A stretch of 64,000 bases of DNA from an uncultured virus (IMG/VR IMGVR_UViG_3300047181_000007) (Duplodnaviria > Heunggongvirae > Uroviricota > Caudoviricetes). The DNA is taken from IMG/VR virus record IMGVR_UViG_3300047181_000007. One strand, 5' to 3'. Shown piece after piece: positions 33,101 through 61,595 of this stretch (position 1 is its first letter; each line of letters opens with the position of its first letter). Both the position numbers and the translations under genes were made by a program. A model generated the notes under the pieces. The model did not search any database and was not told the DNA's origin. It saw nothing but the letters and a program-made list of their open reading frames with translations.

Positions 33101-33110
33101 TAGCACGAAT

Positions 33111-33183
33111 ACCCCTATAGCTCAATGGATAGAGCGAAGGCTTTCTAAGCCTAGGGTTGTGGGTTCGAGTCCCACTAGGGGTG
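33111..33183 (+). tRNA. tRNA-Arg(TCT)
   Basis: Acceptor ACCCCTA/TAGGGGT, D arm GCTC/GAGC, anticodon loop TTTCTAA, T arm GTGGG-TTCGAGT-CCCAC; CCA is not encoded directly after the discriminator. Confidence 0.93.
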
Positions 33184-33231
33184 TTCCATCTAATGGACAT
33201 CGTACTACACGGTACAATAACTGTACAAACA

Positions 33232-42922: not shown

Positions 42923-43342
42923 TTAGTTCTTCTCCACAAATGCTACAGGGATTAGGTAGTAGGCAGATACCCCATCAAGGACAGTACATAATGGTTGCAT
43001 GGTTGCCTCTCCAGTGAAGTAAACATCGTGAGTTGCTCCAAAGTGATCGGTTAGACGGATAACGTCTGTTGGTGTGCCAAAAGCATTGGAGTAAGCAAAG
43101 AATGTATCAAAGTCTGCACTATTTCCCCACGCAGTGGTACTACCAGTGGTACCAATTGGCATAAACAAGGTGTACTTCCATGACTTTATGACAGGACCCG
43201 CTTGCTTATCTGTCTTACCGCCAATAGTTAGCTCGACACTATCCATACGCTGAAGTGTTGGAGCCATTTCAACCGTCTTGAATTGTTTCTCATAGGTTGT
43301 GCTAAGGCGACTATCGTTTAGTTTGATGTAGTTGACTGCCAT
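42923..43342 (-). CDS. Distal tail (Dit)-like protein
   Basis: Directly after the TMP; 139 aa; paralogous domain at 62273-62686. Confidence 0.6.
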   Translation of the reverse strand: MAVNYIKLNDSRLSTTYEKQFKTVEMAPTLQRMDSVELTIGGKTDKQAGPVIKSWKYTLFMPIGTTGSTTAWGNSADFDTFFAYSNAFGTPTDVIRLTDHFGATHDVYFTGEATMQPLCTVLDGVSAYYLIPVAFVEKN

Positions 43343-46300
43343 TATTGCCTCACTTGTCCATCAACAATCTCGATGACCTTTTCTTCAAGTAGATCGCCAC
43401 CAATATAGATTGGGACTACAATACGCTGGATTGAACCGCTTCTATTTCTATTAGATGGAATTACTGTGGTGCCCCAAGGGTCTGCAAATCCATGGGCACC
43501 ACCAAGAGGAGTAATATCAACTCGTTCTCCTGAAGATACTCTTATGAAAGCAGAGTCACGTGGATAGCCAGGTGGAACTATATAGTTACTAAGACCAGTC
43601 TTATGTCCTTGTCCTACTGGACCTTGATCTGGTATAGGTGCTTCAGTGCTTGGCACATAATTAGGTATAGTAGTACCACTCTTGAATAATTCTGGTAGAT
43701 GGTCATTTACCCAATTCAAGCCAGTAATAAGCGTATTTATCATTGTTACTTCATCATCAGTAGCTACCTTCATTAGTCCAGTATTGAGAGCTTGCTGTTG
43801 ACCTATGAGCATTAGCTTATCATTGTCATCCTTCATTTGTTCAGCATAAGTAGCCTGAACTGCGATAGATGCAGTCTGTAGTTTCTGTTGTTCGATGAAG
43901 TAGGCACGAGATAAGTCGGTCTGTTGCTTTTGTAAGTCAAAACCCATCTCGTAGAACTCTTTCTGTTTGGCAAGTTGTTGTTCTTGGAAGTCCTTTTGCT
44001 CCTCATACTGTCGTTTCTGCAAAGCAAAGCGCTCATCTTCCAGTTTCCACATCTCTTTCTGGCGATTCTTGGTCTTCTCAATTTGCTCGCTTTCCATATC
44101 ATGCAGGGTAGTCTCACGTCCCATCTGGCGCTCAGCTAGTCGGCGTTCACGTCCTGTCATAAAGCGGACATTCTCTCCAAAGTCTTGCTGTTGCCAGCCC
44201 CACTGCATGTTGCGGACCTGTCCCTGATATGACCAGTCCTCTTTAGTCCACTGACGCTGCATATTCATCTGTTGCTGTTGCAAACCCATATTCTCGTAGA
44301 ACTGGCGTGATTGCATCTGTAGACTTTGCTGTTGTGACTGGAAGCCCCACTGTGCCTGTGCATAGGATAGATTTCTCTGGCGGTCTTCAATACCCCAAAA
44401 GCCACCAGTACCCTGAATATTGAAAGCCTGTCCAGTACGTGGGTCTGTGGGATTGTAGTTGCCAAGCCCAATACCAGTCTGGAACGCCATTGTCATTGCT
44501 TGACCTTGTTGCTGGACACCAAGTTGAGCTATTTGGTATTCATAGGTCTGCTTATTCTGTAAGAGTTGGACACCCCATGAACCACCATAAATCTGTCCAT
44601 TAGGACCAGCGATACCATAGATAGCAGCTCTAGCAGCATCAGTAAGCTGCGCTCCACCAGCCATCATTTGTCGTGCTTGAGCTTCACTAAGCACACCACC
44701 TGTCATACCCTTGAACATGGATGTTCCAAATATCTGAGCACCTTGTGCAAAGGCTGAAGAACCACCACGCTGTAATCCTGTAGTGCCCCATGCCATACCA
44801 GTGATATTGCCACCAACACCAATGTCCACATTAGCCATTAGATTATAGAAACTTTGCTGTTGAGCAGGCATTCCACCAGCCATAGCTACTCGTGCCATTG
44901 TAATTGGATCAGTATTCATAAACTTTTGGGCTTGGCTAAGTCCTTGAGCGCCATACTGTTGTGTAATCCCAATCATGGTACCAGCGAAAGCATCTACCTG
45001 TTGCTGGCTAGCCATATAAGGTGCTACAGCACTAACTTGATTGACTATCTGCTGTGCTTGTGCTCCACCTATAGTAGATGCAGCCATCGACTGCAAGGTA
45101 CCACGCATAGTTTCGGGCAAATTCATAGCAGCGGAAGCCTGTACTATATCTGTCTGTCTAGTCCAGTTAGACATCTGCGTAAGTGCCTGATAGAGCTCAG
45201 ATGGACTTGAGTCTGCCTTGATTTGAACCATATTACTAACATCAATACCCGCCGCCTGAGCATTTGAAACTACCTGACTCTGCTGTTGGAAGAGTGGATA
45301 ATTGGCTGAGCGTTCAAGAGCGTCCATTTGGGCAGTCTTCTGTGCAATATCACGGCGTGCTTTCTGAGCTGCTGCATCCATTTCTACATGGTAGTACCTT
45401 CGTAGATGTGGATTAGGAATTGGTACGTTTTCAGTAACTAGCCCTGTTGGTATACCACCAACACCAGGAACGTATGTAACTGTGGGAACAGTCACGGCTG
45501 TTGTTCTTTGCGCTGGTGGATTTCCAACTGCTCTTGACAAAATTGGAAGTTGTCTTTCCTCGCCACGTGCAAGTGAAACTGCATCTAGATAACCATACGC
45601 TTGCGCTTGAGCATACGGCATATTGGCTATACCCTGGTATGCCTGTGTCATGGTGACTTGCTGATACCGATTGAGATTCATCGTACCAAATAGCTGCTCA
45701 TACTGCATTACATTCTGCTCTGTGAAAGGTAGTCGAGTAGCCTGGACTGCCTGAGCTGCTAGCGTATCTAATGACACGCCTACCATTTCGGTCTTTGTCA
45801 TTGGAATTAGGGCATTGTAGCTCATGCCAGCTGCTGATAGCTTTAGGGCATTTTGAGATAGAAGAGTAGGGTCTAGTCCACTGTAGATTGCTTGAGTTGC
45901 TAGTGCAGATACCGACATGTACAGTGCTTCAGATGGCATTCCAGTCTCTGCCTGTGCCTGAACAGCAGACATGCCACCCTCCATTTTCTTGTTATAATTA
46001 TTCATTATGGCAGCTAACTGGTCGGGTAGTATTCCCTTCAATACATAAGCACTCGGCTTATAGGTCATTGTCTGTCCACCAGCAGCCCCAACTCTACCTG
46101 GATCGCCAACCTTTACTCCCCAAATATCAGTAGCTAGAGTAGTTTTCAGATAAGCCGATAAAGTATCACCTTTACCTAATGAAGAAGCTCCAGATATAGC
46201 AGCAGCTTGTGGGTTAGAATAGCTTCCATAAGTCTGTGCAGCTACTACACCTACTGCACCAAGAACAGCAGCTGGTCCTACCACAGAACTAAAGAAGGCA

Positions 46301-49300
46301 GACACACCAGCCATTCCAGCTCCAGCTTGTGCAGCAACACCGCTAGCATACAGTGCGCCTGCGGCACCAGCGGCAGCTCCTAAGCCAACACCTTTGATGT
46401 CTCGCATCCAAGGTGGCATAGCTGCTGACAAAGCATCCATTCCCGCTTTAGCAGTCCCTTGGTACTGTATATAGGATTGTAGCTGCTTATAGGCAGCTGC
46501 GGAGAATGGTTCACCAGCCGCAGTACCCATAATTCCACCAGCGTATTGACTTATTGCAGTTTCATATTGTTGTGCCTGTTGTTCACCATAAGCAAGTTGT
46601 TGCATTGGGAATGAGGCAAGGTGACTCAAATACATTAGACCCCATCCACCGATCAAACCACGGAAGAACTTATTGACATTGGCTTTACCACGTGCAACAG
46701 GTCCTCCCATACCCTCTTGAACCATCCCACCATATTGCTGTACCTGATCTGCGGTAAGTTGTGGACCTCCAGGTTGTGCTGCTGCTGTCAATACACCCAT
46801 CGCTTGGGCGGCGTTATACTGAACCTCGCCTGCCCGTATTTGAGCATAACCCTCACTAACTTTAGCTTGAGCAGCTGCCTTAGCTTGGGGCGATAAACCC
46901 TTCTCGCTTAGTTCTGTAAGTCCAGTAGTTACTTTCTGGACTGCTTCTTGCATAGTCTTCAAGCCTTCAGCAGTTTCTTCGTAAACTGTCTTACCACCCT
47001 TGCCTACTCTGGTCTTACCAATTTCTTCTTCTCTTGCTAATTTCTCGGCTTGCATACCCCAAAACATAGCATGACCAGGAGTTCCTGGCTGAACCAATGC
47101 AGGAGCACCGCTTACGCCACCACCACCCATAATAGCGCCAGATAATTCTTGGCGAGCCGTTTCTGAGACTCCAAGACCATATAGCACTGATCCTTGTTGT
47201 GCTGCTGCGACAGCTTGGTTGAGTCTATAAAGCTGACTTGGTATACTTCTTTGTGCAATAGTTGCTGCAAACTCAGCAGGACGAGCCTTGGCAAACTCAC
47301 CAAGCGCTGTACCGCCAGTCCATTCTGGATGACCAGCTGCGACTGCGAAGGAAGTAACCTTTTCCTGAAAGCCAGCAGCCCATTTGATTTGTTCTGGTGT
47401 GATTGCATGTAATGCAGCTAGACCAGCTTCGGCTGTTTCAACTGCACCTGTTGAAGTTCTTCCACCACCAATATGACTAACGACTACCTCAAGTCCCTTG
47501 GTAAATACTTGCTCTAATCTCTTGAAGAAGTTATCTTCCCAATCAGCAACTGTAGTGCCACCACCAGGAATCCCACCTTCCATACCACCACCCCCACCAG
47601 TTATCCTTGCAGCACCTCCCCTCACACCTACGAAACTTCTGACATGACCTTTAGGTACACCTATTGTGCTGATTATGTCTGCTAGTTTGCCAAGCATACC
47701 AGGAGCATTAGCGCCTACGGTTGCATACTGGACTATTGTGTCGATCAGCTCTTCCAGTAATCGGGGGTTGCGCTGAGTCTCGATACCAGTCTTGATGGCT
47801 GCAAATATATCTTCTACCCATGCTTCAGGTTCGATCTGTCCACCCTTCATAAAGATAATCTTGCCATTCTCAACTATAGGTGAGGCATGACCAGTACGTT
47901 CAGATTCCATCATTGGAGAGATTTGCTCAACGTCAAACTTACCTTCGTTGATAAGCCCACGCCATTTACCAGCAATTCTTTCAGTTTCCTTGCGTGCAGC
48001 TTTTAGTGTTGGTCCTTCAGTGCCTTTCTTTCTGCCACCATCAATCCATGCCTTATATTCCACCATTAGCTTAGGACCGAACATGCCACCTTCGCCACTC
48101 CATTCGGCAGATGAGTACAGCATTGGTTCAATAACATCAGCAAATCTCTTGATAGATGCACCAGCTTTTGCAGCTTTCATCATTACAGCATAGGTAGATG
48201 CTTGAATGGATGCATAGGGGCTTAGGACTGATTGACTGTAGCGTTTTATCTCACCAAGGAATAGTCTTTCTTCGCCACCGATCATCCTTGTTCCTAGAAT
48301 ATCTGGTGTACCGGTGGCAGTAAGATTGACACCTTCTGCCTTCATATCTCTGGCATACTGAATGAACTCTTCGTTACTAGTAGCACCAGCTAATTTTGTA
48401 AGGCTAATTCCAAAACCCTGCTTCATACCAGTAAATACTTCACCTGATACCATCCCCCAATCTTTCTTGATCTGTGGAATTGCGCCAGCTTCAAAGACCT
48501 TGCCTTCTTCCATGCGAATCTCCTGCATGGCATCAGTCTCTTTTACGTCATCAATGATAAGTTTATCTTCAGGTTTGTTGGGGTCTAGTCCAAAGACATT
48601 TACAAGGACCAACTCCTTCAATGTCTTTCGATGGATAGCTTCCACTGTAGACATTCGCTTGCCTTCGTAGATTGTATTTCCCTGATAGACACTTACGACT
48701 TTCGGGTCATCGAATGCTAAGCCGCCCATCATGCTGCCACGTAGCTCCAGCTTATTCTTGATAACTTCACTGATGTACTGTCCCTTGAGTTCAGACTTGC
48801 GAGCTGCGGTAAGTACAGCTCTACCAATAATATCAGCCTGCTCTGGAGTAATAGCTAGTGTAGATAGAATAAGCTGTTGCTGTAATGTGGCACCAAGCCC
48901 AACACCAATACGTTGCTGAGCCATGGTATAAATGTCAAGGGCTTCTGGAGGAGAAAGAGGTCCATATTTCCCTACAACAGCTTTATAAAGTGCGATAACA
49001 CTTCTAAACTCAGGTTGGTCCATGTAGGTTCCATAGGCTACATCCTCACCTCTGCCGAATAGATCAACTGGTGAAGTCTTTATCATATTGGCAATCTGGA
49101 ACGAGCGTCTTCCACCTGAAGTTAGAGTTTCTACTTCCTTAGGTGGCTTTCCAAATAGACCAGCAGTACGAGCATAGCCAGCTATGATAAGTGCTTTACC
49201 AATAGGAGATTTGCGAATATCCCATCCTTCAATGGCGGGAAGACCTGAACCAGTCTCAAATAATGCAGCTGAGACTGAACCTAGAGCTTTGATGCGCTCG

Positions 49301-52300
49301 GCTATCTGTTCGACTTGCTCAGGAGAATTTGCTAGTGCAAATGCTTGCGCTTCAGCAGTCCAGCGAGATTTTCCAACAGCTTCCCCTAGTCGTCTACCAA
49401 ACCAATACCAGCTTTGTGCGCCAGAACCTACCCCCTCTTCAGTCTGATAGGGTGTCTCGTTCCAGAATTGGGAGAATGGAGCTTGCTGCCCTTGCTTTCC
49501 AATTAGTGAAATCTTGCGGTTCGTTGGGTCATAGGCAAACATCGTAGTATTGAACATTGTCTCAAGTTCAGATATTTCACCTGTGTTTTGTACCCATTCC
49601 TTCAAGTAGTCAAGGTATTGCTGATAGCCAGGTAGTTGCCCTAATCGTGCAGCAGATACCTCACCAGTGGTAAATGGCAAGGTAGACATTGTGGCTTCCA
49701 TAAAGCGTCTGAGGTTGAAGGCAATACCCATACCTCCTCGTGCTACCTTACGCCGTTGACCAACAATATCAATTAGATCGGTTACAGGGATGGCACCAAT
49801 ATACTTACTTCCTGCTTTCGTTGGGTCGTTGGCGTCCACAATATCCTTGAACATAGATTGGAGTACATTCAGCTCACTGGCTTTGTCACCACCAGCTTTC
49901 TGAATGCCAACCAAGAAATTACTGATTGCTTCCTGAGGAGTTTTGGGTAATCTGTCCTTGATTTCTCTGCTCATTAGGTAGCCATCAACGGTAAACATTC
50001 CTGTCGTCATCAGTGATTCGACTACAGCAGTGATTTGGTCAGCATCCCAATCTCCGAACTGTTCAGCAGAAATAATACCAACACCTCCCGCTGTGCCAGT
50101 GGCATACGGCGACCCTGGTCTTACTGAAACCTTGAACTTGCCTTGAACTATAGTATCGGATGGGATATAGAAGCCATACTTGCGCTTTATCATCCCTGGT
50201 GTCATGGCAAGCATGGTGCTCACGTTGTATTGAAGCTGAGTGTTGGGGGATCTGAAATAAAGTGTGGGTAGACCACCTTGTTCTTCAACTTGTGCAGAGA
50301 TTTTAGATTCCCAAGAAGTTAGTTGCTCACCACCTAACCCAATCCTTTTCCCAATACCTCGAACTATACGCTCATACACTCCTTGTGGCATTTCACTTAC
50401 CCATAAATCAGTACCAGTAAGTAGGTTATATCTACCACCAAAGGCATCGGCAGGGAATCGGCTGTATAGCAGCTTATTGATTTCCTTACTTTCTACCATA
50501 CCAGATAATCTTCTGCCCCAATCCTGTAAGCGACCACCCTGAGAATAACTTGCTCCCTGAACAAACTCCTCAAGAGCAGCACCCCATGTACGCATTATTC
50601 CTGAGATTGCGCCCTGCTCAAAACCATACTCAGGACCATAGTTGAAGTGACTTACTTCAGAGATAGGCTTTAGTAATGGGAATAACTCACCAGAAACTGG
50701 ATTTCTAAGAACCTCAGCTCCCTTAGTGAGTTCATAGAACCGCTCAAAAGCTGCATTCTTCATCTTGCCTAAATCTCTACCCTCAGAAAGAATAAGGTCA
50801 AGGGCTTCAGATGGCAAGTCGGTGACATTCATAATCTTATATGGAGTTTGTCCACCTAATTCACCTGTAAACTCTGGTCGTGGGCGCATATCTAAATTGT
50901 TGAAACTTAGAATATTAGACAGCAATCTCCAGCCTCTTACATGAGGGGGTTCTGCACCAGTGTAAGAAGGATGTTGCTCAAGACTCATATTTAGAAGTTT
51001 AGCTATCTCCTTGTCGTAGTCATTGAGAGCCATGGTTTCTTCAATACCAAGACGAGGTGTCTTAGTAAGATATTCAGCTGATAATGTAGAGGCTGTGGTC
51101 TGCCAATACCCACGTGCTTTGACTTCCATCAGTTGAAGATTGCCCTGTGGGGTAAATCTAACATACTGAGAAGCATCTGATGTGCCACCAGTTCTAACTC
51201 TCATCTCTTCCATTTGTTGCTCAAGTAGTTGGCGCTCAGATGCACTCACACGGGTAACAGCCCACCAGATAGGTTCTTTCTGGTAGTAATAATTGAATCG
51301 TAGCATCGACTCGACAGGATTGACCTTGCTCTCTACGAGTCTCTGTAAGCGATCAAAGAAGAAATTCACACTAACATTGTTGGTCTTGGTAGCTCTACTA
51401 TATGTTTCTGCAAGCAACTCTAATGGGATTCCCTTTTGTGGCTGTCTCTGCATTTCTGCTGGAAGGCTAGTCCAGTACTTTGTTACATCACGAATAATCT
51501 CGTCACCAAGTCCAGGTGCTTCAAAGTTCATCAACTGGAGCATCTTTATCTGATTCGTATTAGGAAGACTACCAAAAGTACCGTAAATGAATTGGTTTAT
51601 TGGCATCTTGCCTTCACCAGTAACAAAGTAGATGTCATGTCTAGCTGTTTGATTCCCAATACCAAGCACCACTGATGGCACTGCTTCACCAGGAACCCCC
51701 ATGGCTCCCACAGGTCTAGGCACAAATGAGATTTCCTGCTTATAGCCACCAACACCAGTTTCCTTGATACCAACCAGTTCGTTAGCAGTTGCTATGATGA
51801 CAGGTTGTCCCATGGCTACTTGCTCTACACGCAAGTGTGGATTAGCCCTTAGGATTTGTTCTTTGATTACATCTGTACTCTGGACGTTCTGCGGCTGCTC
51901 TCTCATCATCTGTTCGTACTCAAGACTAACAGGGTCTACTCCATAACCCGTCATCCTGTTTATTGCACGTGGCAGCTGAAGAGTAAAACTAGAGATAGTC
52001 ATAGCATTAGCTTCGGGTGTTGTAACTCTCAATGGGGTAAGTTGATTTTCTACCCCACCTATGCCATGAGTAGTCATTAGACCAACAATATATTCTTGAC
52101 CAGGAGATAACGGAGCACCCTCTAGCCCACGAAGTTTCTCGTATTCAAGTCTTCTTTGATCGCCTTCACCAACCCAACGCTCTCTGAAAATACCAGTTTG
52201 AATAGAAACATTCTGCCAGTCCATCGGAGGAAGATCAGGATGAGATACCCGAATGTCTTTAGGATATGCACCAGCAACGACTGTATATCCTTGTCCTTCG

Positions 52301-53460
52301 TTTATGATAGGTTTCCATTCAAACCCTGCACCAGAGAATGGTGTAGGGATGACAGCAGAATAAGGACGGACAATTGCAGCTGGACGCTGCCCTTCCACAG
52401 AGATATTTAGCCAGCGATAACCCGCTCTCTCAGCCTCATTCATTGAGGTAATGAATTGTGGTTCAGCTTGTTGCAAATTCCAGATAGTAGCTCCTGGCTT
52501 GAGAGTCGCCTTAGGAGTAGGCATATTGACTTCGCCTACTGCTGGCATACCGTGTTCATTGAAGAACTGAGCATCGGGAGCATTGTCAGAACGTAGCTCA
52601 AGCAAGCCGATAGATTGACGCATCAGCATGGGATAACGCTTGTAAGCATTGTTGATAGCACTAAATTCATCAGAGCCTAATGTTCCAGAAATAAACTCAG
52701 TCATCAATTTAGTGGCAGCTTCATCCCAAAATACATTCCCTAATTTGATTAGTCGAAATAGATCAGGTTGTCCTTTAGGTGCGATTCCAAAGCCCATAGC
52801 CCTAGACCACAAATAATCGCCAGTAAGTATGTCATCAGGCACAGGCTTTCCCTTTACATTTAGTGTGGCTAGTCTAGAGTTTCTGGCAATTATCTCAGCA
52901 ACAGCTTGATAGCTGGAACGACCAGGAACCTGAACTGCAATTGTTTCCGCAAGCATGCGCTGCTGTTGGAAGGAGAATAGAGTAGGGTGAATCATCTGAA
53001 TACCACCAGCTACGGCATGTTCTCCTAAACGATAGCCAGTCCTTCGTAATTCTCCTAGACGCTCTTGTGGATTTTCTGGACCTATAGCAATACCTGATAC
53101 TTCTCTAGGTGCTAAGGCTCCATAGATATATTCGTAAAAGGCTTGAGCAGGACCACGTATCTCCAATTGTGGCTGTTTCTCTCCAATAGGAGCAACATTG
53201 ACGATCTCAGTACCATAGAGATAGCCCCATCTTCCAGCTGTCTTTTCAATAATGGCTTGCCCAAAAGATGTCTTAGGTCCTGGTAGCAAGTCCATTATCA
53301 ACTCATGCGATTCTGAGCTTGTAGACCTAAAGGAATAACGCAAAGCTACACCAACTCGCTCTGGTTTTCCCACAGTAATCCATTCGGCACCTGAAAATAT
53401 TCGCTGAATATACTGCTCGAAATTATCGAATCCCTGAGTCCAGTCTTGGTCGGGTTTCAT
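43342..53460 (-). CDS. Giant tape-measure protein with an N-terminal two-barrel RNAP-like region and a PD-(D/E)xK nuclease motif
   Basis: Follows the tail chaperones; Ala/Gly/Gln-rich helical C-half; GIK-x7-K (51739-51765), RSP...DWDAD (50038-50253), PD..EIK..QxxxY (48190-48306). Confidence 0.8.
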   Translation of the reverse strand: MKPDQDWTQGFDNFEQYIQRIFSGAEWITVGKPERVGVALRYSFRSTSSESHELIMDLLPGPKTSFGQAIIEKTAGRWGYLYGTEIVNVAPIGEKQPQLEIRGPAQAFYEYIYGALAPREVSGIAIGPENPQERLGELRRTGYRLGEHAVAGGIQMIHPTLFSFQQQRMLAETIAVQVPGRSSYQAVAEIIARNSRLATLNVKGKPVPDDILTGDYLWSRAMGFGIAPKGQPDLFRLIKLGNVFWDEAATKLMTEFISGTLGSDEFSAINNAYKRYPMLMRQSIGLLELRSDNAPDAQFFNEHGMPAVGEVNMPTPKATLKPGATIWNLQQAEPQFITSMNEAERAGYRWLNISVEGQRPAAIVRPYSAVIPTPFSGAGFEWKPIINEGQGYTVVAGAYPKDIRVSHPDLPPMDWQNVSIQTGIFRERWVGEGDQRRLEYEKLRGLEGAPLSPGQEYIVGLMTTHGIGGVENQLTPLRVTTPEANAMTISSFTLQLPRAINRMTGYGVDPVSLEYEQMMREQPQNVQSTDVIKEQILRANPHLRVEQVAMGQPVIIATANELVGIKETGVGGYKQEISFVPRPVGAMGVPGEAVPSVVLGIGNQTARHDIYFVTGEGKMPINQFIYGTFGSLPNTNQIKMLQLMNFEAPGLGDEIIRDVTKYWTSLPAEMQRQPQKGIPLELLAETYSRATKTNNVSVNFFFDRLQRLVESKVNPVESMLRFNYYYQKEPIWWAVTRVSASERQLLEQQMEEMRVRTGGTSDASQYVRFTPQGNLQLMEVKARGYWQTTASTLSAEYLTKTPRLGIEETMALNDYDKEIAKLLNMSLEQHPSYTGAEPPHVRGWRLLSNILSFNNLDMRPRPEFTGELGGQTPYKIMNVTDLPSEALDLILSEGRDLGKMKNAAFERFYELTKGAEVLRNPVSGELFPLLKPISEVSHFNYGPEYGFEQGAISGIMRTWGAALEEFVQGASYSQGGRLQDWGRRLSGMVESKEINKLLYSRFPADAFGGRYNLLTGTDLWVSEMPQGVYERIVRGIGKRIGLGGEQLTSWESKISAQVEEQGGLPTLYFRSPNTQLQYNVSTMLAMTPGMIKRKYGFYIPSDTIVQGKFKVSVRPGSPYATGTAGGVGIISAEQFGDWDADQITAVVESLMTTGMFTVDGYLMSREIKDRLPKTPQEAISNFLVGIQKAGGDKASELNVLQSMFKDIVDANDPTKAGSKYIGAIPVTDLIDIVGQRRKVARGGMGIAFNLRRFMEATMSTLPFTTGEVSAARLGQLPGYQQYLDYLKEWVQNTGEISELETMFNTTMFAYDPTNRKISLIGKQGQQAPFSQFWNETPYQTEEGVGSGAQSWYWFGRRLGEAVGKSRWTAEAQAFALANSPEQVEQIAERIKALGSVSAALFETGSGLPAIEGWDIRKSPIGKALIIAGYARTAGLFGKPPKEVETLTSGGRRSFQIANMIKTSPVDLFGRGEDVAYGTYMDQPEFRSVIALYKAVVGKYGPLSPPEALDIYTMAQQRIGVGLGATLQQQLILSTLAITPEQADIIGRAVLTAARKSELKGQYISEVIKNKLELRGSMMGGLAFDDPKVVSVYQGNTIYEGKRMSTVEAIHRKTLKELVLVNVFGLDPNKPEDKLIIDDVKETDAMQEIRMEEGKVFEAGAIPQIKKDWGMVSGEVFTGMKQGFGISLTKLAGATSNEEFIQYARDMKAEGVNLTATGTPDILGTRMIGGEERLFLGEIKRYSQSVLSPYASIQASTYAVMMKAAKAGASIKRFADVIEPMLYSSAEWSGEGGMFGPKLMVEYKAWIDGGRKKGTEGPTLKAARKETERIAGKWRGLINEGKFDVEQISPMMESERTGHASPIVENGKIIFMKGGQIEPEAWVEDIFAAIKTGIETQRNPRLLEELIDTIVQYATVGANAPGMLGKLADIISTIGVPKGHVRSFVGVRGGAARITGGGGGMEGGIPGGGTTVADWEDNFFKRLEQVFTKGLEVVVSHIGGGRTSTGAVETAEAGLAALHAITPEQIKWAAGFQEKVTSFAVAAGHPEWTGGTALGEFAKARPAEFAATIAQRSIPSQLYRLNQAVAAAQQGSVLYGLGVSETARQELSGAIMGGGGVSGAPALVQPGTPGHAMFWGMQAEKLAREEEIGKTRVGKGGKTVYEETAEGLKTMQEAVQKVTTGLTELSEKGLSPQAKAAAQAKVSEGYAQIRAGEVQYNAAQAMGVLTAAAQPGGPQLTADQVQQYGGMVQEGMGGPVARGKANVNKFFRGLIGGWGLMYLSHLASFPMQQLAYGEQQAQQYETAISQYAGGIMGTAAGEPFSAAAYKQLQSYIQYQGTAKAGMDALSAAMPPWMRDIKGVGLGAAAGAAGALYASGVAAQAGAGMAGVSAFFSSVVGPAAVLGAVGVVAAQTYGSYSNPQAAAISGASSLGKGDTLSAYLKTTLATDIWGVKVGDPGRVGAAGGQTMTYKPSAYVLKGILPDQLAAIMNNYNKKMEGGMSAVQAQAETGMPSEALYMSVSALATQAIYSGLDPTLLSQNALKLSAAGMSYNALIPMTKTEMVGVSLDTLAAQAVQATRLPFTEQNVMQYEQLFGTMNLNRYQQVTMTQAYQGIANMPYAQAQAYGYLDAVSLARGEERQLPILSRAVGNPPAQRTTAVTVPTVTYVPGVGGIPTGLVTENVPIPNPHLRRYYHVEMDAAAQKARRDIAQKTAQMDALERSANYPLFQQQSQVVSNAQAAGIDVSNMVQIKADSSPSELYQALTQMSNWTRQTDIVQASAAMNLPETMRGTLQSMAASTIGGAQAQQIVNQVSAVAPYMASQQQVDAFAGTMIGITQQYGAQGLSQAQKFMNTDPITMARVAMAGGMPAQQQSFYNLMANVDIGVGGNITGMAWGTTGLQRGGSSAFAQGAQIFGTSMFKGMTGGVLSEAQARQMMAGGAQLTDAARAAIYGIAGPNGQIYGGSWGVQLLQNKQTYEYQIAQLGVQQQGQAMTMAFQTGIGLGNYNPTDPRTGQAFNIQGTGGFWGIEDRQRNLSYAQAQWGFQSQQQSLQMQSRQFYENMGLQQQQMNMQRQWTKEDWSYQGQVRNMQWGWQQQDFGENVRFMTGRERRLAERQMGRETTLHDMESEQIEKTKNRQKEMWKLEDERFALQKRQYEEQKDFQEQQLAKQKEFYEMGFDLQKQQTDLSRAYFIEQQKLQTASIAVQATYAEQMKDDNDKLMLIGQQQALNTGLMKVATDDEVTMINTLITGLNWVNDHLPELFKSGTTIPNYVPSTEAPIPDQGPVGQGHKTGLSNYIVPPGYPRDSAFIRVSSGERVDITPLGGAHGFADPWGTTVIPSNRNRSGSIQRIVVPIYIGGDLLEEKVIEIVDGQVRQ

Positions 53461-53752
53461 TGTTCTGTCCTTGCTGTCCTTCTTGTGCGTCAGCAGCAGC
53501 ATTTATAATAGAATAAAGTTCTTCTACTTCAGTGACGACACCAACTTCTAGAAGCCAGATGTGAGGTTGTTCTAGCACACCACCCGCAACTAAAGGTATG
53601 CCGAGTTTCTTGCACTTCTTCCACAGCTTTAGAGCTTCAGGCATTTCGGGAGGTTCTTTCCGAAGTCCTACCTTTAGCTCATTCAGCCCTCCGTAGTATT
53701 CTTGGAGAGCTACACGTAGTTCATTTAGTTTCCCCTCTACAACGCTTCCCCC
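53423..53752 (-). CDS. Tail assembly chaperone extension (gpGT-like), reached by -1 frameshift
   Basis: Lies in the -1 frame of the upstream gene; GGGGGAA slippery site at 53746-53752. Confidence 0.7.
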   Translation of the reverse strand, partial: GGSVVEGKLNELRVALQEYYGGLNELKVGLRKEPPEMPEALKLWKKCKKLGIPLVAGGVLEQPHIWLLEVGVVTEVEELYSIINAAADAQEGQQGQNNETRPRLDSGIR

Positions 53753-54189
53753 AATGCACCGACCCATAGCTGATTTACTTCAAGCACTTTGCCGTGTATT
53801 TCATCAGCAATATCGGATGGAAGTTTGCTCCACGTGTCATAGAACTGTGACTTAGACATAGCTAACACTGGATGTCCTGCAATCTGCTTAGATGGGAACA
53901 TAGCCTTACCGTTCTCATCTTCAAGATTGCACTCAACCATAGTTAGCCAAACTTCAAGACGTTTTAGCTCTTCGTAGCCAATGTTCTGAATGAGAGTTAC
54001 TTCACCAGGAGTATCATCGTTCCACTTACGCTCCAACTTGGCGAAATAATTGGCTCGAAGTTCTGCCTCACCTTGTCTTGCTTGTTTGATGGTGACTGTT
54101 GTTGGCTCATCACCTTCTTTAGCATATACTGCATCTGATTTGTCCAGTGTGAATGTCGAATAAATAGGTGCTATAAGTTTGATAGGCAT
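53737..54189 (-). CDS. Tail assembly chaperone (gpG-like)
   Basis: Between tail tube and TMP; ends LGEAL. Confidence 0.75.
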   Translation of the reverse strand: MPIKLIAPIYSTFTLDKSDAVYAKEGDEPTTVTIKQARQGEAELRANYFAKLERKWNDDTPGEVTLIQNIGYEELKRLEVWLTMVECNLEDENGKAMFPSKQIAGHPVLAMSKSQFYDTWSKLPSDIADEIHGKVLEVNQLWVGALGEAL

Positions 54190-54255: not shown

Positions 54256-55377
54256 TTACGAAGAAGCCCATGCATATTGCGTGGTGCCATTACCAAGGAT
54301 AATCTCGGCGTAGTTTCCAGTGCTAGGAGCAATTGCGGTTCCTGTCACTCTCATCATAACGCTTTGATTTCCAGCCAGACGGATACCGCCGACTACTTGA
54401 TACATGACCTGTGGTGCACGAATCCGCATTTGCCATGCTTGATATGCGGTACCATTAGTGAAGTTAGTGCTTGTTCGTGCAGACAGTGTGTAGATGTCCA
54501 AGTCTGCTACATAAGGCGTGGTATTCCATTGAGTGTAGTTTGTAGCGCCAGTAAGGATACGGCGGTACAGGTCAGGGTCTTGCCACTTCACAACCATATC
54601 AACGGTAAGTGATCGACCAACTACAGTGACATCATTGAGCAGCGGATCGCCAAACACACGTTCCTGACGAATGTCAAGAGGTGCATTTGTAAGTGTCACA
54701 GTAGCAGCTGCTACAGGCAGCTCTTCGGTGGTTGAGATGGTTGGGATTTTCAAGTAGCCCGTAGTAACTACACCAATTGGAATGCTCTGGTAATCCTCAA
54801 AGGTGGTATTGGCATAAGTCCATGTGGTGTCGTTGGTGTACATTGCTGTACGTCCAATAACATCAACACGGCTGGTGATAATACCATCATTGGGAAGGGC
54901 TAGAGTAAGGGCAATGACCTTGCAGTCATTGTACTGTTCCTTGTGCCATGTCGTAGACAGAGAGCCAGGAACCTCTTTGCGAAAGCCCATCCACTTGACC
55001 TCGGACTGATCGGCAGTGTTGAACATGAATAAATGGCGGTACATACCAGTGACGGTAGCACCAACATCAGTGCCCATTGTGCCTGTGCAGTCCTGATTGG
55101 TCTTTGTGGAAACGCTTCCCATCGTTCCATACAGTAGCCAGCCTAGAGTATTCTCCAGACGAGGATTCAATAATGCTCCACCAGAGCAGAGGAACCCTGC
55201 CCGATACGGAATCGTAGGGGTAGGGATGCCACCAACTTCTGGAGGACCAAGACGGTCATCAGAAATAGACCCAAGGTCGATGTCTGATGCACGATGCTTG
55301 TACCAAGTTGCCACGGTGCTCCCTTTGGTGAATTGCGCTCCGAAGCCGAAGATACCGTTCTGAGCAGTAACTGTCAT
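54256..55377 (-). CDS. Major tail tube protein
   Basis: Thr-rich 373 aa, LGWLLYG.MG, synteny. Confidence 0.8.
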   Translation of the reverse strand: MTVTAQNGIFGFGAQFTKGSTVATWYKHRASDIDLGSISDDRLGPPEVGGIPTPTIPYRAGFLCSGGALLNPRLENTLGWLLYGTMGSVSTKTNQDCTGTMGTDVGATVTGMYRHLFMFNTADQSEVKWMGFRKEVPGSLSTTWHKEQYNDCKVIALTLALPNDGIITSRVDVIGRTAMYTNDTTWTYANTTFEDYQSIPIGVVTTGYLKIPTISTTEELPVAAATVTLTNAPLDIRQERVFGDPLLNDVTVVGRSLTVDMVVKWQDPDLYRRILTGATNYTQWNTTPYVADLDIYTLSARTSTNFTNGTAYQAWQMRIRAPQVMYQVVGGIRLAGNQSVMMRVTGTAIAPSTGNYAEIILGNGTTQYAWASS

Positions 55378-59222: not shown

Positions 59223-61595
59223 TTAGGCGGTAGTGCCAGATAAGGCAACGATTTTGGTAAACCCACCCTTCAAGTTGTGAGGCTTTATGAATGTAGCGTT
59301 GAAGTCCTCTTCCCACTTGAAGTTGCCACGTAGGTTTTCCATGTATCGGAAATTGCCATCTATATTATACACTACTATAAACGTACCGAAAAGATGAATT
59401 AGTTCTACTGCCCATCCATTAAGGAATGCATGTTTGACATTTACTGTTCCACCACATAAATATGCTGGAGATGAACTTACACCAGGTGAGTAACCCTCCA
59501 TGTATACATGTTTGAGGGTAGTGACAATAATCACACCACTAGTAAATGCGGGGCGAGAAGTAACAAATGCATTTCCACCAAGTAGAAGTGCCGATTTACT
59601 ATCAAGCGCAGTATTCTTGCCATGTAGATATGCAGACTTACTTGAAATCAGTACACCACCACCAACCATAAAGGCAGACTTGGAAGACAGTGTAGAGGAT
59701 TGTCCTCTAAGGTAGGATGACTTTACACTTATATTAGCAGAATAGCCATTGATGTAAGCAGCTCTTGATTCCTGAATTTCTGCTTTTACTGCTATATAGG
59801 CATGTGCAGAAGTGGACAAGGAAGTAGAGCCATGTGTATAAGCACTCTTGGAGCTTTCAGTCTTTATACCACCATCAGCAAATGCTGAAACTGAGGAAAC
59901 TACTGAAACTCCACCTCGTATATATGCTGGTTTGAAACCTAAAGAAGATTGTGCAGCAGTGGTGCCCTGAATATATGCACTTTGAGAATCTACCACTAAA
60001 GCTCGTCCAGTAGTGAATGACGAAGTTGAAGAGACTACTGAAGTCTTACCTTTAGTGTATGCTAACCTTGAGCTAGAAACAAGTAGACCACCAGTCAAAT
60101 ACGAACTATGTGAAGTTTGTGTGACACTTTTGCCACACAAATAGGCTTGTGTACCATCTTGTGCGCTTTGTGATCCACAAAGATAGGCGCTCTTGCTAGA
60201 GACTATCTGAGATATACCATGCAAATAAGCACTCTTGCTATTTATACTCGTAGACCATCCACGTAAGTATGAAGGATGGGAACTAACTCCTGAATTTTGT
60301 CCACGAAGATAGATACTTTTAGATGTGGTAACTACAATCCCACCCTTAGTGAATGCTGATTTTGAAGAAGTGAGTCCACCCCTTAGATAGGCTGATTTAC
60401 TTGCTAGTGTTAGTATTTGTCCTTTTGAGTATACAGGCTTTGATGTAGTGACTACAATTCCACCTCTCAAGAAAGAAACATGAGAAGTGACTGTACTAAT
60501 TTGTCCCTTGGTATAGGATGATTTAGAAGATGTTACAACTATTCCACCTTTTAGATATGCAGACTTTGACCCTACCAGGGATGATTGCCCCTTCAAATAT
60601 GCTGCATGACTGGTTGTTACTGCTATACCACCCTTTAGGTAGGCAATATGGGAAGTTACTGTAGAACTCTGCCCTTTCAGGTATGCAGGTTTACTTCCAT
60701 TAGACGAAACACTACCTTTGAGATAAGATGGTTTGCTACTAGGAGTAGCTACTGTACCACCTTTGGTATAGGCTGATTTACTACTAGGAGTGGCTACTAT
60801 AGAACCACGTGTATAGGCAGTTGTATTATCGGCAATATTGTAGCTAGGAGCTGCACCATTTGCGAAGGATGGCTTACTGCTAGTTGCATTTATATACCAA
60901 GTAATTAGAACACGACCAGGACCGCCTGCTCCACCAGCACGAGCCGTGGTTGCGTTGGTACGTCCTGCACCACCGCCTCCAGCACCTGAGGCTGTTCTGA
61001 AGACGTTACCAGCTGCATTACGGATACCACCATTGCCACCGTTACCGCCCCCATTTGTACCTGTGGCACCTGTGATCGTTGTAGCGTCTGTGCCTACATT
61101 GGCATTACCCGCTCCTGCACCAGCACCACCACCCCCTGAAGAGCCATTCTGATTTGCCCCATTGCCTCCTTTATAGGAAGTAATGCCACCACCAGAGACA
61201 TTCGCAGCACCGCCAATTCCTGCACGATTGCCTGTGTTGTTACCTCGTAGACCGCCACCGCCTCCATTGGCGCTTACGATAGTTGATGTATTGCCTCCAT
61301 TATTGTTATTGAACATGGATGCGCCACCAGGAGTGCCATTGTTATTACCAGCCACCCCACCAGCACCAGCAACACCAACCACAAATGCATAGTTGTTACC
61401 AACAACTATGCTAGATAGGGTAAATTTAGCATACGCACCAGCTCCACCACCACCCGCACCGCCAGTAGTAGTGTTGCAGTTTAGCCCGCCACCACCGCCA
61501 GCGCCGCCACCCCAACACTCTATTAGAGCATTATTGGTGTTGGCAGGAAAGACTTGTCCATATGTTCCAGCAGTAGTCTGATTATTACTTGGCAT
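59223..61595 (-). CDS. Fibre-like protein: Gly-rich N-terminal domain plus many ~14-aa SKSAYLKG repeats
   Basis: ECWGGGAGGGG...GGGGAGAY; repeated (S/T)S(K/H)(S/P)(A/S)YL(K/R)G. Confidence 0.75.
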   Translation of the reverse strand: MPSNNQTTAGTYGQVFPANTNNALIECWGGGAGGGGGLNCNTTTGGAGGGGAGAYAKFTLSSIVVGNNYAFVVGVAGAGGVAGNNNGTPGGASMFNNNNGGNTSTIVSANGGGGGLRGNNTGNRAGIGGAANVSGGGITSYKGGNGANQNGSSGGGGAGAGAGNANVGTDATTITGATGTNGGGNGGNGGIRNAAGNVFRTASGAGGGGAGRTNATTARAGGAGGPGRVLITWYINATSSKPSFANGAAPSYNIADNTTAYTRGSIVATPSSKSAYTKGGTVATPSSKPSYLKGSVSSNGSKPAYLKGQSSTVTSHIAYLKGGIAVTTSHAAYLKGQSSLVGSKSAYLKGGIVVTSSKSSYTKGQISTVTSHVSFLRGGIVVTTSKPVYSKGQILTLASKSAYLRGGLTSSKSAFTKGGIVVTTSKSIYLRGQNSGVSSHPSYLRGWSTSINSKSAYLHGISQIVSSKSAYLCGSQSAQDGTQAYLCGKSVTQTSHSSYLTGGLLVSSSRLAYTKGKTSVVSSTSSFTTGRALVVDSQSAYIQGTTAAQSSLGFKPAYIRGGVSVVSSVSAFADGGIKTESSKSAYTHGSTSLSTSAHAYIAVKAEIQESRAAYINGYSANISVKSSYLRGQSSTLSSKSAFMVGGGVLISSKSAYLHGKNTALDSKSALLLGGNAFVTSRPAFTSGVIIVTTLKHVYMEGYSPGVSSSPAYLCGGTVNVKHAFLNGWAVELIHLFGTFIVVYNIDGNFRYMENLRGNFKWEEDFNATFIKPHNLKGGFTKIVALSGTTA

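What the first reader, a model, noticed from the sequence alone, without database searches (positions are those of the whole stretch)
50038..51765. Two-barrel RNA polymerase active-site motifs inside the tape-measure protein (candidate injected virion RNAP)
Seen: VGIKETGVGGYKQEIS (51739-51765) has the K-x7-K spacing of the beta-subunit GDKxxGRHGNKGVIS motif and is followed by a DIYF strand. About 500 aa later come LYFRSPN (50245-50253) and, about 64 aa on, QFGDWDADQITAV (50038-50052), which echo the beta-prime NRxP...NADFDGDQM motifs. The order matches single-chain two-barrel RNAPs. Knowledge: Thermus phage P23-45 has a tape-measure-fused RNAP and crAss-like phages package single-chain RNAPs. 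Inference: a very divergent enzyme (DWDAD instead of DFDGD) delivered with the tail tape.
Basis: partly seen in the sequence, partly recalled or inferred. Interest (0 to 1): 0.85.

Follow-up and report, generated by a model that had tools for sequence, protein, structure and literature searches.

The report
Tape measure protein with RNA-polymerase-like head
The giant tail "ruler" protein of an uncultured freshwater-sediment phage starts with about 1,500 residues that carry the conserved active-site motifs of cell-type RNA polymerases, so the phage probably injects its own transcription enzyme, a trick proven so far only in unrelated hot-spring phages.

Summary
The motifs are real. They lie in one intact 3,386-aa ORF (window 43342-53502, minus strand) at the tape-measure position of a siphovirus-like tail module. 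A whole-library HMMER search found 42 relatives. Twenty-seven of them are 2,685-4,456 aa giants with the same layout.

Conservation in the family:
- D1151, D1153 and D1155 are invariant (35 of 35 aligned rows).
- P1086 is 35/35, R1084 32/35, R1024 36/36 and K632 31/32.
K580 is not.

Family profiles hit E. coli RNA polymerase at the expected places and in the expected order:
- beta 1191-1228: score 30.1, E=0.0056, reached by 0 of 70 shuffles.
- beta' 412-477: one alignment covers NRAP and NADFDGD, E=0.056, reached by 1 of 100 shuffles.
- The top hit on YonO is its RSP motif, and the top hit on the beta' bridge-helix region is its RRL segment. Neither is significant alone.

There is no detectable similarity to P23-45 gp96 or gp64, and no Pfam or PDB hit.

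Verdict: probably a new, sequence-distinct family of tape-measure-fused two-barrel RNA polymerases (confidence about 0.7).

The parts
43342..53502 (-). 3,386-aa ORF (P0001): RNA-polymerase-like N-terminal part fused to a tape-measure-like C-terminal part. It has no cysteine. The database copy P0002 starts 14 residues later, at M15.
   Evidence: intact in 4 further runs
49003..53502 (-). aa 1-1500: N-terminal core conserved across the family (candidate polymerase module)
   Evidence: occupancy 0.65-0.97 in 29 full-length members; HMMER family
51727..51774 (-). aa 577-592, VGIKETGVGGYKQEIS. This is the local form of the family motif TG[IV]SxKGxGxK. K588 is conserved; K580 is not.
   Evidence: no match to the beta GDK..NKG motif
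51583..51636 (-). aa 623-640, DIYFVTGEGKMPINQFIY, with T628 (28/32), K632 (31/32) and F638 (27/32)
50659..50760 (-). aa 915-948, beta-like block (family consensus GG.GPLYNP.TG.L.ERP.T[IM]). It aligns with E. coli beta 1191-1228 (..LYDGRTGEQFERPVTVG) inside Pfam RNA_pol_Rpb2_6.
   Evidence: (0/70 shuffles)
50413..50490 (-). aa 1005-1030, K1010 (29 K + 3 R of 36) ... GGRY with invariant R1024 (36/36)
50236..50271 (-). aa 1078-1089, LPTLYFRSPNTQ: the R-x-P block. It aligns with beta' 419-430 (HPVLLNRAPTLH) and with YonO 479-504 (..LRSPHLFREHGV).
50038..50055 (-). aa 1150-1155, GDWDAD: invariant Asp triad (family pattern G-D-b-D-x-D). It aligns with beta' 459-464 (ADFDGD).
49693..49734 (-). aa 1257-1270, GMGIAFNLRRFMEA (family GMG..YN.RR...A): candidate bridge-helix segment. 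The top hit on beta' 700-960 is GYLTRRLVDV (794-803).
   Evidence: E=0.44, not significant
49606..49626 (-). aa 1293-1299, YQQYLDY (family YQ.YLD): conserved block after the candidate bridge helix
48178..48315 (-). aa 1730-1775, TGTPDILG...GEIKRYS...IQASTY: PD-(D/E)xK plus QxxxY nuclease-like motif, in the variable region aa 1500-2000
   Evidence: present in about half of the members; no Pfam or PDB hit
46228..46317 (-). aa 2396-2425: the only strongly hydrophobic (membrane-like) segment
43903..44505 (-). aa 3000-3200: the most conserved stretch of the tape-measure-like part (QWGW..DF, RFMTGR)
   Evidence: 58 columns at 0.8 or more
53423..54189 (-). Two small ORFs (150 and 114 aa) in 0 and -1 frames, overlapping at a GGGGG run: the arrangement of tail-assembly chaperones directly upstream
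54256..55377 (-). 373-aa candidate tail tube protein
   Evidence: Pfam Phage_tube_2, E=1.1e-4, below the curated cut-off

Best explanation
The first ~1,500 residues of this phage's tape measure protein are a highly diverged single-chain 'two-barrel' (cell-type) RNA polymerase.

Proposed anatomy:
- A beta-like half ends near aa 915-1030.
- About 50-130 residues later comes a beta'-like half: R1084-x-P1086, then the Mg-binding loop G-D1151-W-D1153-A-D1155.
- A bridge-helix-like segment follows at aa 1257-1270.
- The link between the two halves is too short for a clamp, as in the clamp-less P23-45 gp96 (inference).

Proposed mechanism, by analogy with gp96 (PMC10770324). The protein is built into the tail. 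It is expelled into the cell envelope ahead of the DNA. Its N-terminal enzyme then transcribes the first phage genes independently of the host polymerase.

What is shown: the motifs, their conservation, the fusion in one intact ORF, the position in the tail module, and profile similarity to beta, beta' and YonO motifs. What is inferred: the fold, catalysis, packaging, injection and the target genes.
For: (1) Family. The HMMER search of 1.84 billion representatives found 42 hits, 32 at E<=1e-30. Twenty-seven are 2,685-4,456 aa and have the same architecture.

(2) Invariant residues. D1151, D1153 and D1155 are 35/35; P1086 35/35; R1084 32/35; R1024 36/36; K632 31/32. This was repeated in an independent alignment of 29 full-length members.

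(3) Published filter. The filter for two-barrel RNAPs, [RK]xPx{20,100}DxDxD (header of Supplementary Data 4 of PMC10770324), is met in 33 of 36 family rows. The same table lists accepted RNAPs without Gly at the fourth triad position (DVDID, DQDPD, DNDKD).

(4) Match to beta. Family 560-1330 against E. coli beta 780-1250 gives a top hit of aa 915-948 on beta 1191-1228, score 30.1, E=0.0056. None of 70 shuffles reach it (maximum 20.2; reversed sequence 14.9). On restricted regions E=5.4e-4. The same hit is first in whole N-terminus against whole beta, at E=0.13. The segment lies in PF00562. In members such as P0006, 9 of 17 residues are identical (my own count by eye on the rows printed).

(5) Match to beta'. 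The block aa 1070-1170 against whole beta' gives one alignment, 412-477, that joins RSP~RAP and DWDAD~DFDGD, at E=0.056. One of 100 whole-protein shuffles reaches it, and 1 of 100 shuffles that keep R, P and the three D fixed.

(6) Other matches at the expected places. The top hit on YonO (839 aa) is its RSP492 block, 40 aa before its DNDGD. The top hit on beta' 700-960 is the RRL end of the bridge helix. Neither is significant alone.

(7) Calibration. The proven RNAP gp96 does no better: E=0.017 on beta', nothing on beta or YonO, and no PF00623 hit anywhere in the P23-45 record, while 14 of 14 control genomes ring.

(8) Context. The gene order is scaffold, major head protein, SU10-type adaptor, tube-like protein, two 0/-1 overlapping ORFs, this giant ORF, further large tail ORFs and a GH25 endolysin.

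(9) Accessory domains. Some members add nucleic-acid enzymes: a DEDD exonuclease in P0019 and P0029 and a PD-(D/E)xK motif in about half.
Against: - No 3D model could be made, so the double-psi barrels are not shown.
- No Pfam, PHROG, NCBIfam or PDB-sequence hit for P0001 or for 14 homologues.
- No significant similarity to gp96 or gp64. Those two do find each other, at E=3.6e-6.
- The hhalign E-values against beta, beta' and YonO are marginal. The templates were single sequences. I ran about 25 comparisons, and some sub-regions were chosen after seeing earlier results.
- The lysines of the beta-like barrel are not located.
- P0001 departs from the family consensus at several positions: L1090 for R, N1093 for G, L944 for P.
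- The 'tape measure' identity rests on gene order and composition only. The C-terminal 1,387 aa have no match in GenBank phages.
- No second RNAP was found in the window, and no promoter is established for such an enzyme.
Confidence: 0.7

Rival explanations
1. The N-terminal part does have the two-barrel fold but is not a transcribing RNA polymerase. It could be a primase-like or DNA-synthesising enzyme (as archaeal PolD is within this fold class). It could instead be a relic kept for a structural or DNA-threading role.
For: Two-barrel enzymes include a DNA polymerase (PolD; PMC10770324, section 11). The fourth triad position is never fixed as Gly in this family. P0001 has lost some consensus residues. 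Nuclease modules ride along. No RNA data exist.
Against: The three Asp, R-x-P, R1024 and K632 are kept at 89-100% in a family that is otherwise about 20-25% identical. That argues for a working active site. The matched motifs are those of RNAP beta, beta' and YonO.
Confidence: 0.12
2. The region is not a polymerase. The conserved acidic triad and basic residues would then belong to an unrelated metal-dependent enzyme or to a structural metal site of a giant ejection or tape-measure protein. On this view the matches to RNAP motifs are convergent or due to chance.
For: No family library or PDB search recognises it. Both Atlas look-ups gave no usable hit. Each hhalign match is marginal. DxDxD is a common metal-binding pattern (recalled).
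Against: The four best matches fall on the hallmark RNAP segments in the correct order. Two of them beat shuffles: 0/70, 1/100, and 1/100 with the motif residues fixed. The published RNAP motif filter is met in 33 of 36 rows.
Confidence: 0.15
3. The motifs are chance strings in a very long protein, or the fusion is an assembly artefact.
For: The bare motif occurs in 73 of 2000 shuffles and in two unrelated small frames of the window.
Against: The motifs are invariant across the family. The ORF is continuous and identical in contigs of 4 further runs from 4 studies. Twenty-seven relatives have the same fused layout.
Confidence: 0.02

Closest known systems
Thermus phage P23-45 gp96 (also P74-26, G20c, TSP4): virion RNA polymerase fused to the N-terminus of a 5,002-aa tape measure protein (Chaban et al. 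2024, PMC10770324; PDB 8H2M, 8H2N)
   Same: A giant ORF at the tape-measure locus. The RNAP-type motifs ([RK]xP, then DxDxD) sit in the N-terminal ~1,200-1,500 aa. The link between the beta-like and beta'-like parts is short, with no room for a clamp (inference). The proposed role is an injected enzyme for the first phage genes.
   Different: No detectable sequence relation. The triad is DWDAD (family D-b-D-x-D), not DFDGD. P0001 has no M23 peptidase domain, whereas the gp96 relatives carry PF01551. No gp64-like second RNAP is in the 64 kb seen. The habitat is mesophilic freshwater sediment. gp96 is biochemically and structurally proven; this protein is not.
Cellular RNA polymerase beta and beta' (E. 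coli RpoB, RpoC)
   Same: Profile matches to beta 1191-1228 (in PF00562) and to beta' 412-477 (NRAP...NADFDGD, in PF00623). A weak match to the bridge-helix end, 794-803. The order is the same.
   Different: One chain instead of two. Most of beta and beta' has no counterpart here (clamp, flap, zinc sites and so on). An insertion of ~30 aa lies between R-x-P and the triad. The triad has no Gly. Pfam models do not score.
Bacillus prophage SPbeta YonO, a single-chain two-barrel RNAP (that YonO is a proven RNAP is recalled; no paper was read for it)
   Same: RSPxxxRExGV in the family against RSPHLFREHGV in YonO. It lies 40-67 aa before the Asp triad, and it is the top profile hit on YonO.
   Different: YonO is a free 839-aa protein, not fused to a tail protein. 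The match is not significant on its own (E=0.56).

Membership tests
Two-barrel (double-psi beta-barrel) RNA polymerases | Metal-binding DxDxD loop of the beta'-like barrel | tested here: met
   DWDAD at aa 1151-1155. The three Asp are 35/35 in aligned rows and at least 90% conserved in 29 full-length members.
Two-barrel (double-psi beta-barrel) RNA polymerases | [RK]xP 20-100 residues before the triad (filter used in Supplementary Data 4 of PMC10770324) | tested here: met
   R1084-S-P1086, 64 residues before D1151. Met by regex in 33 of 36 rows. P is 35/35 and R 32/35. Filter text seen.
Two-barrel (double-psi beta-barrel) RNA polymerases | Similarity of the beta'-like region to the beta' active-site domain beyond the five motif residues | tested here: met
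   The block 1070-1170 aligns to beta' 412-477 at E=0.056. One of 100 whole-protein shuffles and 1 of 100 motif-preserving shuffles reach the real score. Marginal, with a single-sequence template.
Two-barrel (double-psi beta-barrel) RNA polymerases | A beta-like region preceding the beta'-like one | tested here: met
   aa 915-948 aligns to beta 1191-1228 in PF00562. Score 30.1, E=0.0056, 0 of 70 shuffles. E=5.4e-4 on restricted regions.
Two-barrel (double-psi beta-barrel) RNA polymerases | Conserved lysines of the beta-like barrel (E. coli beta K1065 and K1073; residue numbers recalled) | tested here: inconclusive
   K588, K632 and K1010 are conserved. None aligns with the GDK..NKG motif.
Two-barrel (double-psi beta-barrel) RNA polymerases | Bridge helix after the beta'-like barrel | tested here: inconclusive
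   GMG..YN.RR...A at 1257-1270. The top hit on beta' 700-960 is GYLTRRLVDV, but at E=0.44.
Two-barrel (double-psi beta-barrel) RNA polymerases | Two double-psi beta-barrel folds facing each other | not testable with these tools
Two-barrel (double-psi beta-barrel) RNA polymerases | Recognition by curated RNAP models or by solved-structure sequences | tested here: not met
   No hit. Control: PF00623 also misses the proven gp96 and gp64 in the whole P23-45 record.
P23-45 gp96-type tape-measure-fused virion RNAP | Sequence homology to gp96 or gp64 | tested here: not met
   hhalign E=0.075-0.6. The family HMM finds nothing in the P23-45 six-frame ORFs.
P23-45 gp96-type tape-measure-fused virion RNAP | Polymerase module and tape measure in one polypeptide at the tape-measure locus | tested here: met
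   One ORF, intact in 4 further runs. It follows a tube-like gene and two 0/-1 overlapping ORFs. The tape-measure identity itself rests on synteny, one hydrophobic segment and an Ala/Gly/Gln-rich C-terminal half. No TMP family model hits.
P23-45 gp96-type tape-measure-fused virion RNAP | Presence in virions and RNA synthesis by N-terminal fragments | not testable with these tools
   Needs the bench. No RNA run holds the sequence.

The most novel reading that the evidence does not exclude
This is a widespread, so far undescribed family of giant tape measure proteins (at least 27 clusters at 50% identity). They would inject a clamp-less two-barrel RNA polymerase that arose independently of, or diverged beyond recognition from, the Thermus-phage gp96 enzyme. 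In this family the polymerase is often combined with nuclease modules (PD-(D/E)xK, DEDD exonuclease), making an injected multi-enzyme 'first-minutes' toolkit. The over-represented 15-mer TTCCAT[TAG/CTA]ATGGAA would be its phage-specific promoter or operator.
Probability: 0.25. Interest if true: 0.8.

Novelty: new variant of a known kind. Interest (0 to 1): 0.62.

Why it matters
A tape-measure-fused virion RNA polymerase has been shown only for one genus of Thermus phages. My four literature searches found only Chaban et al. 2024 describing such a fusion.

A second family that is unrelated in sequence, mesophilic and far more diverse would show that delivering a cell-type polymerase through a non-contractile tail is a general strategy. 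That matters in three ways:
- It would explain how such phages can start transcription independently of the host polymerase. Resistance to inhibitors such as rifampicin, as reported for P23-45 early genes in section 6 of the paper, is untested here.
- It adds very diverged sequences to the two-barrel polymerase tree. These are closer in motif detail to beta and beta' than gp96 is.
- It gives a compact, cysteine-free, possibly clamp-less polymerase to study.

Tried and rejected
- **Slicing a protein id** (P0004:288-1358): not accepted.
- **ESM Atlas:** Two look-ups then gave no usable hit.
- **tblastn against GenBank phages:** no match for the N-terminal 1,900 aa or for the C-terminal 1,387 aa. 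The major head protein gave one weak hit.
- **The search for related loci:** nothing found in viral contigs, the genome collection or metagenome contigs with A1, P0004, P0008 or the head protein. The gene neighbourhoods of the homologues therefore remain unseen.
- **Whole genome:** none is held for this window.
- **The listing of cluster members:** switched off, so the sources and names of the homologues are unknown.
- **The search for homologous proteins:** gave only the window's own protein and P0003. A3 was 'too long'.
- **Sequence links to gp96, gp64 and the whole P23-45 record:** none significant.
- **K-motif against the beta lysine motif:** no match.
- **Candidate nuclease region aa 1600-1900:** no Pfam or PDB hit.
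- **Sigma-70-type promoter scan around the gene:** no excess, 23 found against 24.1 expected.
- **RNA evidence:** no RNA holder is listed among the public runs.
- **Earlier-notes look-ups** by place and by sequence: nothing.
- **Supplementary material of PMC10770324:** the structure-based alignments in the supplementary figures are pictures, and Supplementary Data 3 is a .7z file that cannot be read here. The published family alignments could therefore not be compared with this family.
Full report
**What is there**

The finding lies in a single 3,386-codon ORF on the minus strand, window 43342-53502.
- VGIKETGVGGYKQEIS is aa 577-592.
- DIYF is aa 623-626.
- LYFRSPN is aa 1081-1087.
- QFGDWDADQITAV is aa 1148-1160, with DWDAD exactly at 50038-50052.

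The protein has no cysteine and one strongly hydrophobic segment, aa 2396-2425. Its C-terminal half is rich in Ala, Gly and Gln.

The gene order on the minus strand is as follows:
- a scaffold-like protein;
- the major head protein (PHROG 1357);
- an SU10-type adaptor (above the Pfam cut-off);
- a 192-aa ORF;
- a tube-like protein (Phage_tube_2, below the cut-off);
- two small ORFs in 0 and -1 frames that overlap at a GGGGG run;
- the giant ORF;
- ORFs of 139, 1,416, 193, 580 and 193 aa;
- a GH25-SH3 endolysin.

That is the tape-measure position. The 0/-1 pair looks like the tail-assembly chaperone pair. No tape-measure family model hits the protein, so this identity is by synteny and composition.

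Contigs of four further public runs from four studies, all labelled freshwater sediment metagenome, cover the whole gene. There are no indels and no joints. The fusion is therefore not an assembly artefact.

**Is it more than chance?**

As bare strings, no. The published RNAP filter [RK]xPx{20,100}DxDxD (header of Supplementary Data 4 of PMC10770324) occurs in 73 of 2000 shuffles of this protein. It also occurs in two unrelated small frames of the window.

Conservation changes the picture. A word-based search found only one distant relative, P0003 (3,188 aa, 25% identity). I aligned aa 345-1395 with the matching part of P0003 (A2) and sent the profile through 1.84 billion representatives. It found 42 proteins at E<=1e-3 and 32 at E<=1e-30. 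Twenty-seven of them are 2,685-4,456 aa.

I left eight rows out of the alignments: P0036, P0037, P0039-P0043 and P0045. They are short fragments or repeat proteins with weak hits. I also left out P0002, the window's own protein called from M15.

In 36 rows aligned to the profile:
- D1151, D1153 and D1155 are 35/35. The missing row, P0030, is cut off before the site.
- P1086 is 35/35.
- R1084 is 32/35.
- R1024 is 36/36.
- K632 is 31/32.

An independent MAFFT alignment of the 29 full-length members gives the same list at 90% or more, and adds K288, R295, T582 and K588. It also shows the layout. Residues 1-1500 are conserved. Residues 1500-2000 are variable. The C-terminal part is conserved again, most strongly at aa 3000-3200.

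Re-aligning aa 530-660 with a better method shows a family motif TG[IV]SxKGxGxK. K588 sits in the second lysine column. In P0001 the first lysine is displaced by two positions, to K580.

The triad is D-(W/F/Y/L/I/V)-D-x-D, with a variable fourth residue. The published table lists accepted RNAPs with DVDID, DQDPD and DNDKD, so the missing Gly does not disqualify it.

**Is it an RNA polymerase?**

Curated libraries are silent:
- Pfam, PHROGs, NCBIfam and PDB sequences (single sequence and profile) give nothing for P0001 or for 14 homologues.
- Both ESM Atlas look-ups returned no usable hit.

This silence weighs little. PF00623 finds nothing at E<=10 in the whole P23-45 record, which encodes two crystallised RNAPs, while it rings in 14 of 14 control genomes.

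The family also shows no significant similarity to gp96 or gp64:
- hhalign gives E=0.075-0.6, even after I enlarged the gp96 family with P0046-P0049.
- The family HMM finds nothing among 765 six-frame ORFs of P23-45.
- By contrast, gp96 and gp64 find each other at E=3.6e-6.

If this is a two-barrel enzyme, it is a different family from the Thermus pair.

I then compared family profiles with E. coli RpoB and RpoC (locus L005) and with YonO of SPbeta (L006).

Against beta:
- Family 560-1330 against beta 780-1250 has its top hit at aa 915-948 on beta 1191-1228. In P0001 this reads ..VLRNPVSGELFPLLKPIS against ..RLYDGRTGEQFERPVTVG.
- The score is 30.1 and E=0.0056.
- None of 70 residue shuffles of the beta segment reaches it (maximum 20.2, median 14.3). 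The reversed sequence scores 14.9.
- With both sides narrowed, E=5.4e-4.
- With the independent full-length alignment (aa 1-1500) against whole beta, the same pair is again first, at E=0.13.
- Many members fit better than P0001. For example, PLYNPRSGELLERPSTM in P0006 against RLYDGRTGEQFERPVTV in beta.
- The beta segment lies in Pfam RNA_pol_Rpb2_6 (717-1264).

Against whole beta':
- The two best hits are GDWDADQITAVVESL on ADFDGDQMAVHVPLT (459-473) and LPTLYFRSPNTQ on HPVLLNRAPTLH (419-430).
- The 101-column block aa 1070-1170 gives one alignment, 412-477, that covers both, at E=0.056.
- One of 100 whole-protein shuffles reaches that score.
- One of 100 shuffles of beta' 391-490 that keep R425, P427, D460, D462 and D464 fixed reaches it. 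The flanks therefore add to the motif residues.

Other hits at the expected places:
- The top hit of aa 1160-1340 on beta' 700-960 is AFNLRRFMEA on GYLTRRLVDV (794-803, the end of the bridge helix), at E=0.44.
- The top hit of the whole N-terminal profile on YonO is its RSP492 block, RSPHLFREHGV, against the family's RSPxxxRExGV. It lies 40 aa before YonO's DNDGD, at E=0.56.

Cautions on these comparisons. Taken singly, most of these values are not significant. The templates were single sequences. I ran about 25 such comparisons, some on regions chosen after earlier results. Still, the best hits fall each time on the hallmark segment, in the order beta then beta', and two of them beat their shuffles. 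For scale, the proven gp96 family scores E=0.017 on beta' and finds nothing on beta or YonO.

**What is not supported**

The lysine block's best match on beta is 1115-1131, at E=0.15-0.3. Nothing matches beta 1040-1130. Which conserved basic residues (K588, K632, K1010, R1024) serve the beta-like barrel is open.

**How it probably works**

The beta-like block ends near aa 1030 and the R-x-P block starts at aa 1078. There is no room for the clamp that beta and beta' build between these points. This recalls the clamp-less, flat gp96, which its authors think can pass through the tail channel (PMC10770324, section 11).

By analogy with gp96 (sections 6, 7, 9 and 13), I propose three steps:
1. The protein is assembled in the tail.
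2. It is expelled into the envelope at infection.
3. It transcribes the first genes as the DNA enters.

The lack of cysteine fits a protein that must refold after ejection (my inference). None of these steps is shown here.

The plus-strand half of the window encodes SSB, a ParB-like protein, Sak4, DnaB and a phosphoesterase. It encodes no sigma factor and no second polymerase. Only 64 kb of a contig of at least 81 kb were seen.

**Novelty**

Four literature searches found only Chaban et al. 2024 describing a tape-measure-fused RNAP. In GenBank phages, gp96 relatives occur only in Thermus phages: 10 records.

Earlier notes of this scan describe similar candidates in other windows. I could not link them to this family by sequence, and I did not use them as evidence.

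I file this as a new variant of a known kind: the same principle as gp96, in a different and much more diverse family, with a non-canonical triad and optional nuclease modules.

Noticed in passing
window 2215, 2260, 7979, 12610, 13882, 18843, 25012, 33184, 40303, 43446, 54204, 63016 (15 nt each): The palindromic 15-mer TTCCAT[TAG/CTA]ATGGAA occurs 12 times at one mismatch or fewer, against 0.21 expected. Two copies sit directly before an AAGGAG ribosome site and start codon in the gene's orientation (2260; 54204 on the minus strand). Others lie inside genes or in the opposite orientation. It is a candidate operator, promoter or terminator. P23-45-like phages with a fused RNAP also carry a phage-specific conserved motif.
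   Followed up: partly
window 48178-48315 (aa 1730-1775 of the giant ORF): TGTPDILG...GEIKRYS...IQASTY looks like a PD-(D/E)xK nuclease motif with QxxxY (RecB/Cas4 type; the name is recalled). It is present in about half of the family. Pfam and PDB sequence searches do not recognise it.
   Followed up: partly
homologues P0019, P0029, P0021: Some longer family members carry extra modules. P0029 has an N-terminal DEDD exonuclease (RNase_T, 2.4e-7) and P0019 matches phrog_192. P0021 and P0029 have HINT/intein-like domains near the C-terminus.
   Followed up: no
window 43342-53502: There is not one cysteine in 3,386 residues.
   Followed up: no
window 59223-61595 and 62273-63826 (minus strand): Two large ORFs upstream of the scaffold gene are built from diverged 42-nt (14-aa) repeats (families D1, D4-D6, D8). 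The 790-aa ORF has a Gly_rich_2 domain.
   Followed up: no
window 33110-33184 (+): tRNA-Arg(TCT) lies between the two convergent gene blocks. One copy of the 15-mer abuts its 3' end.
   Followed up: no
window 53423-54189 (minus strand): The 150-aa and 114-aa ORFs are in 0 and -1 frames and overlap over ...TTGGGGGAAGCG.... This is the usual layout of frameshifted tail chaperones, but there is no canonical XXXYYYZ heptamer inside the overlap. GGGAAAC lies just after the stop.
   Followed up: partly
whole window: The phage has no close relative in GenBank phages, IMG/VR, the genome collection or the JGI contigs that were searched. It occurs nearly identically in at least 11 freshwater-sediment runs that hold half or more of the sampled words.
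   Followed up: partly
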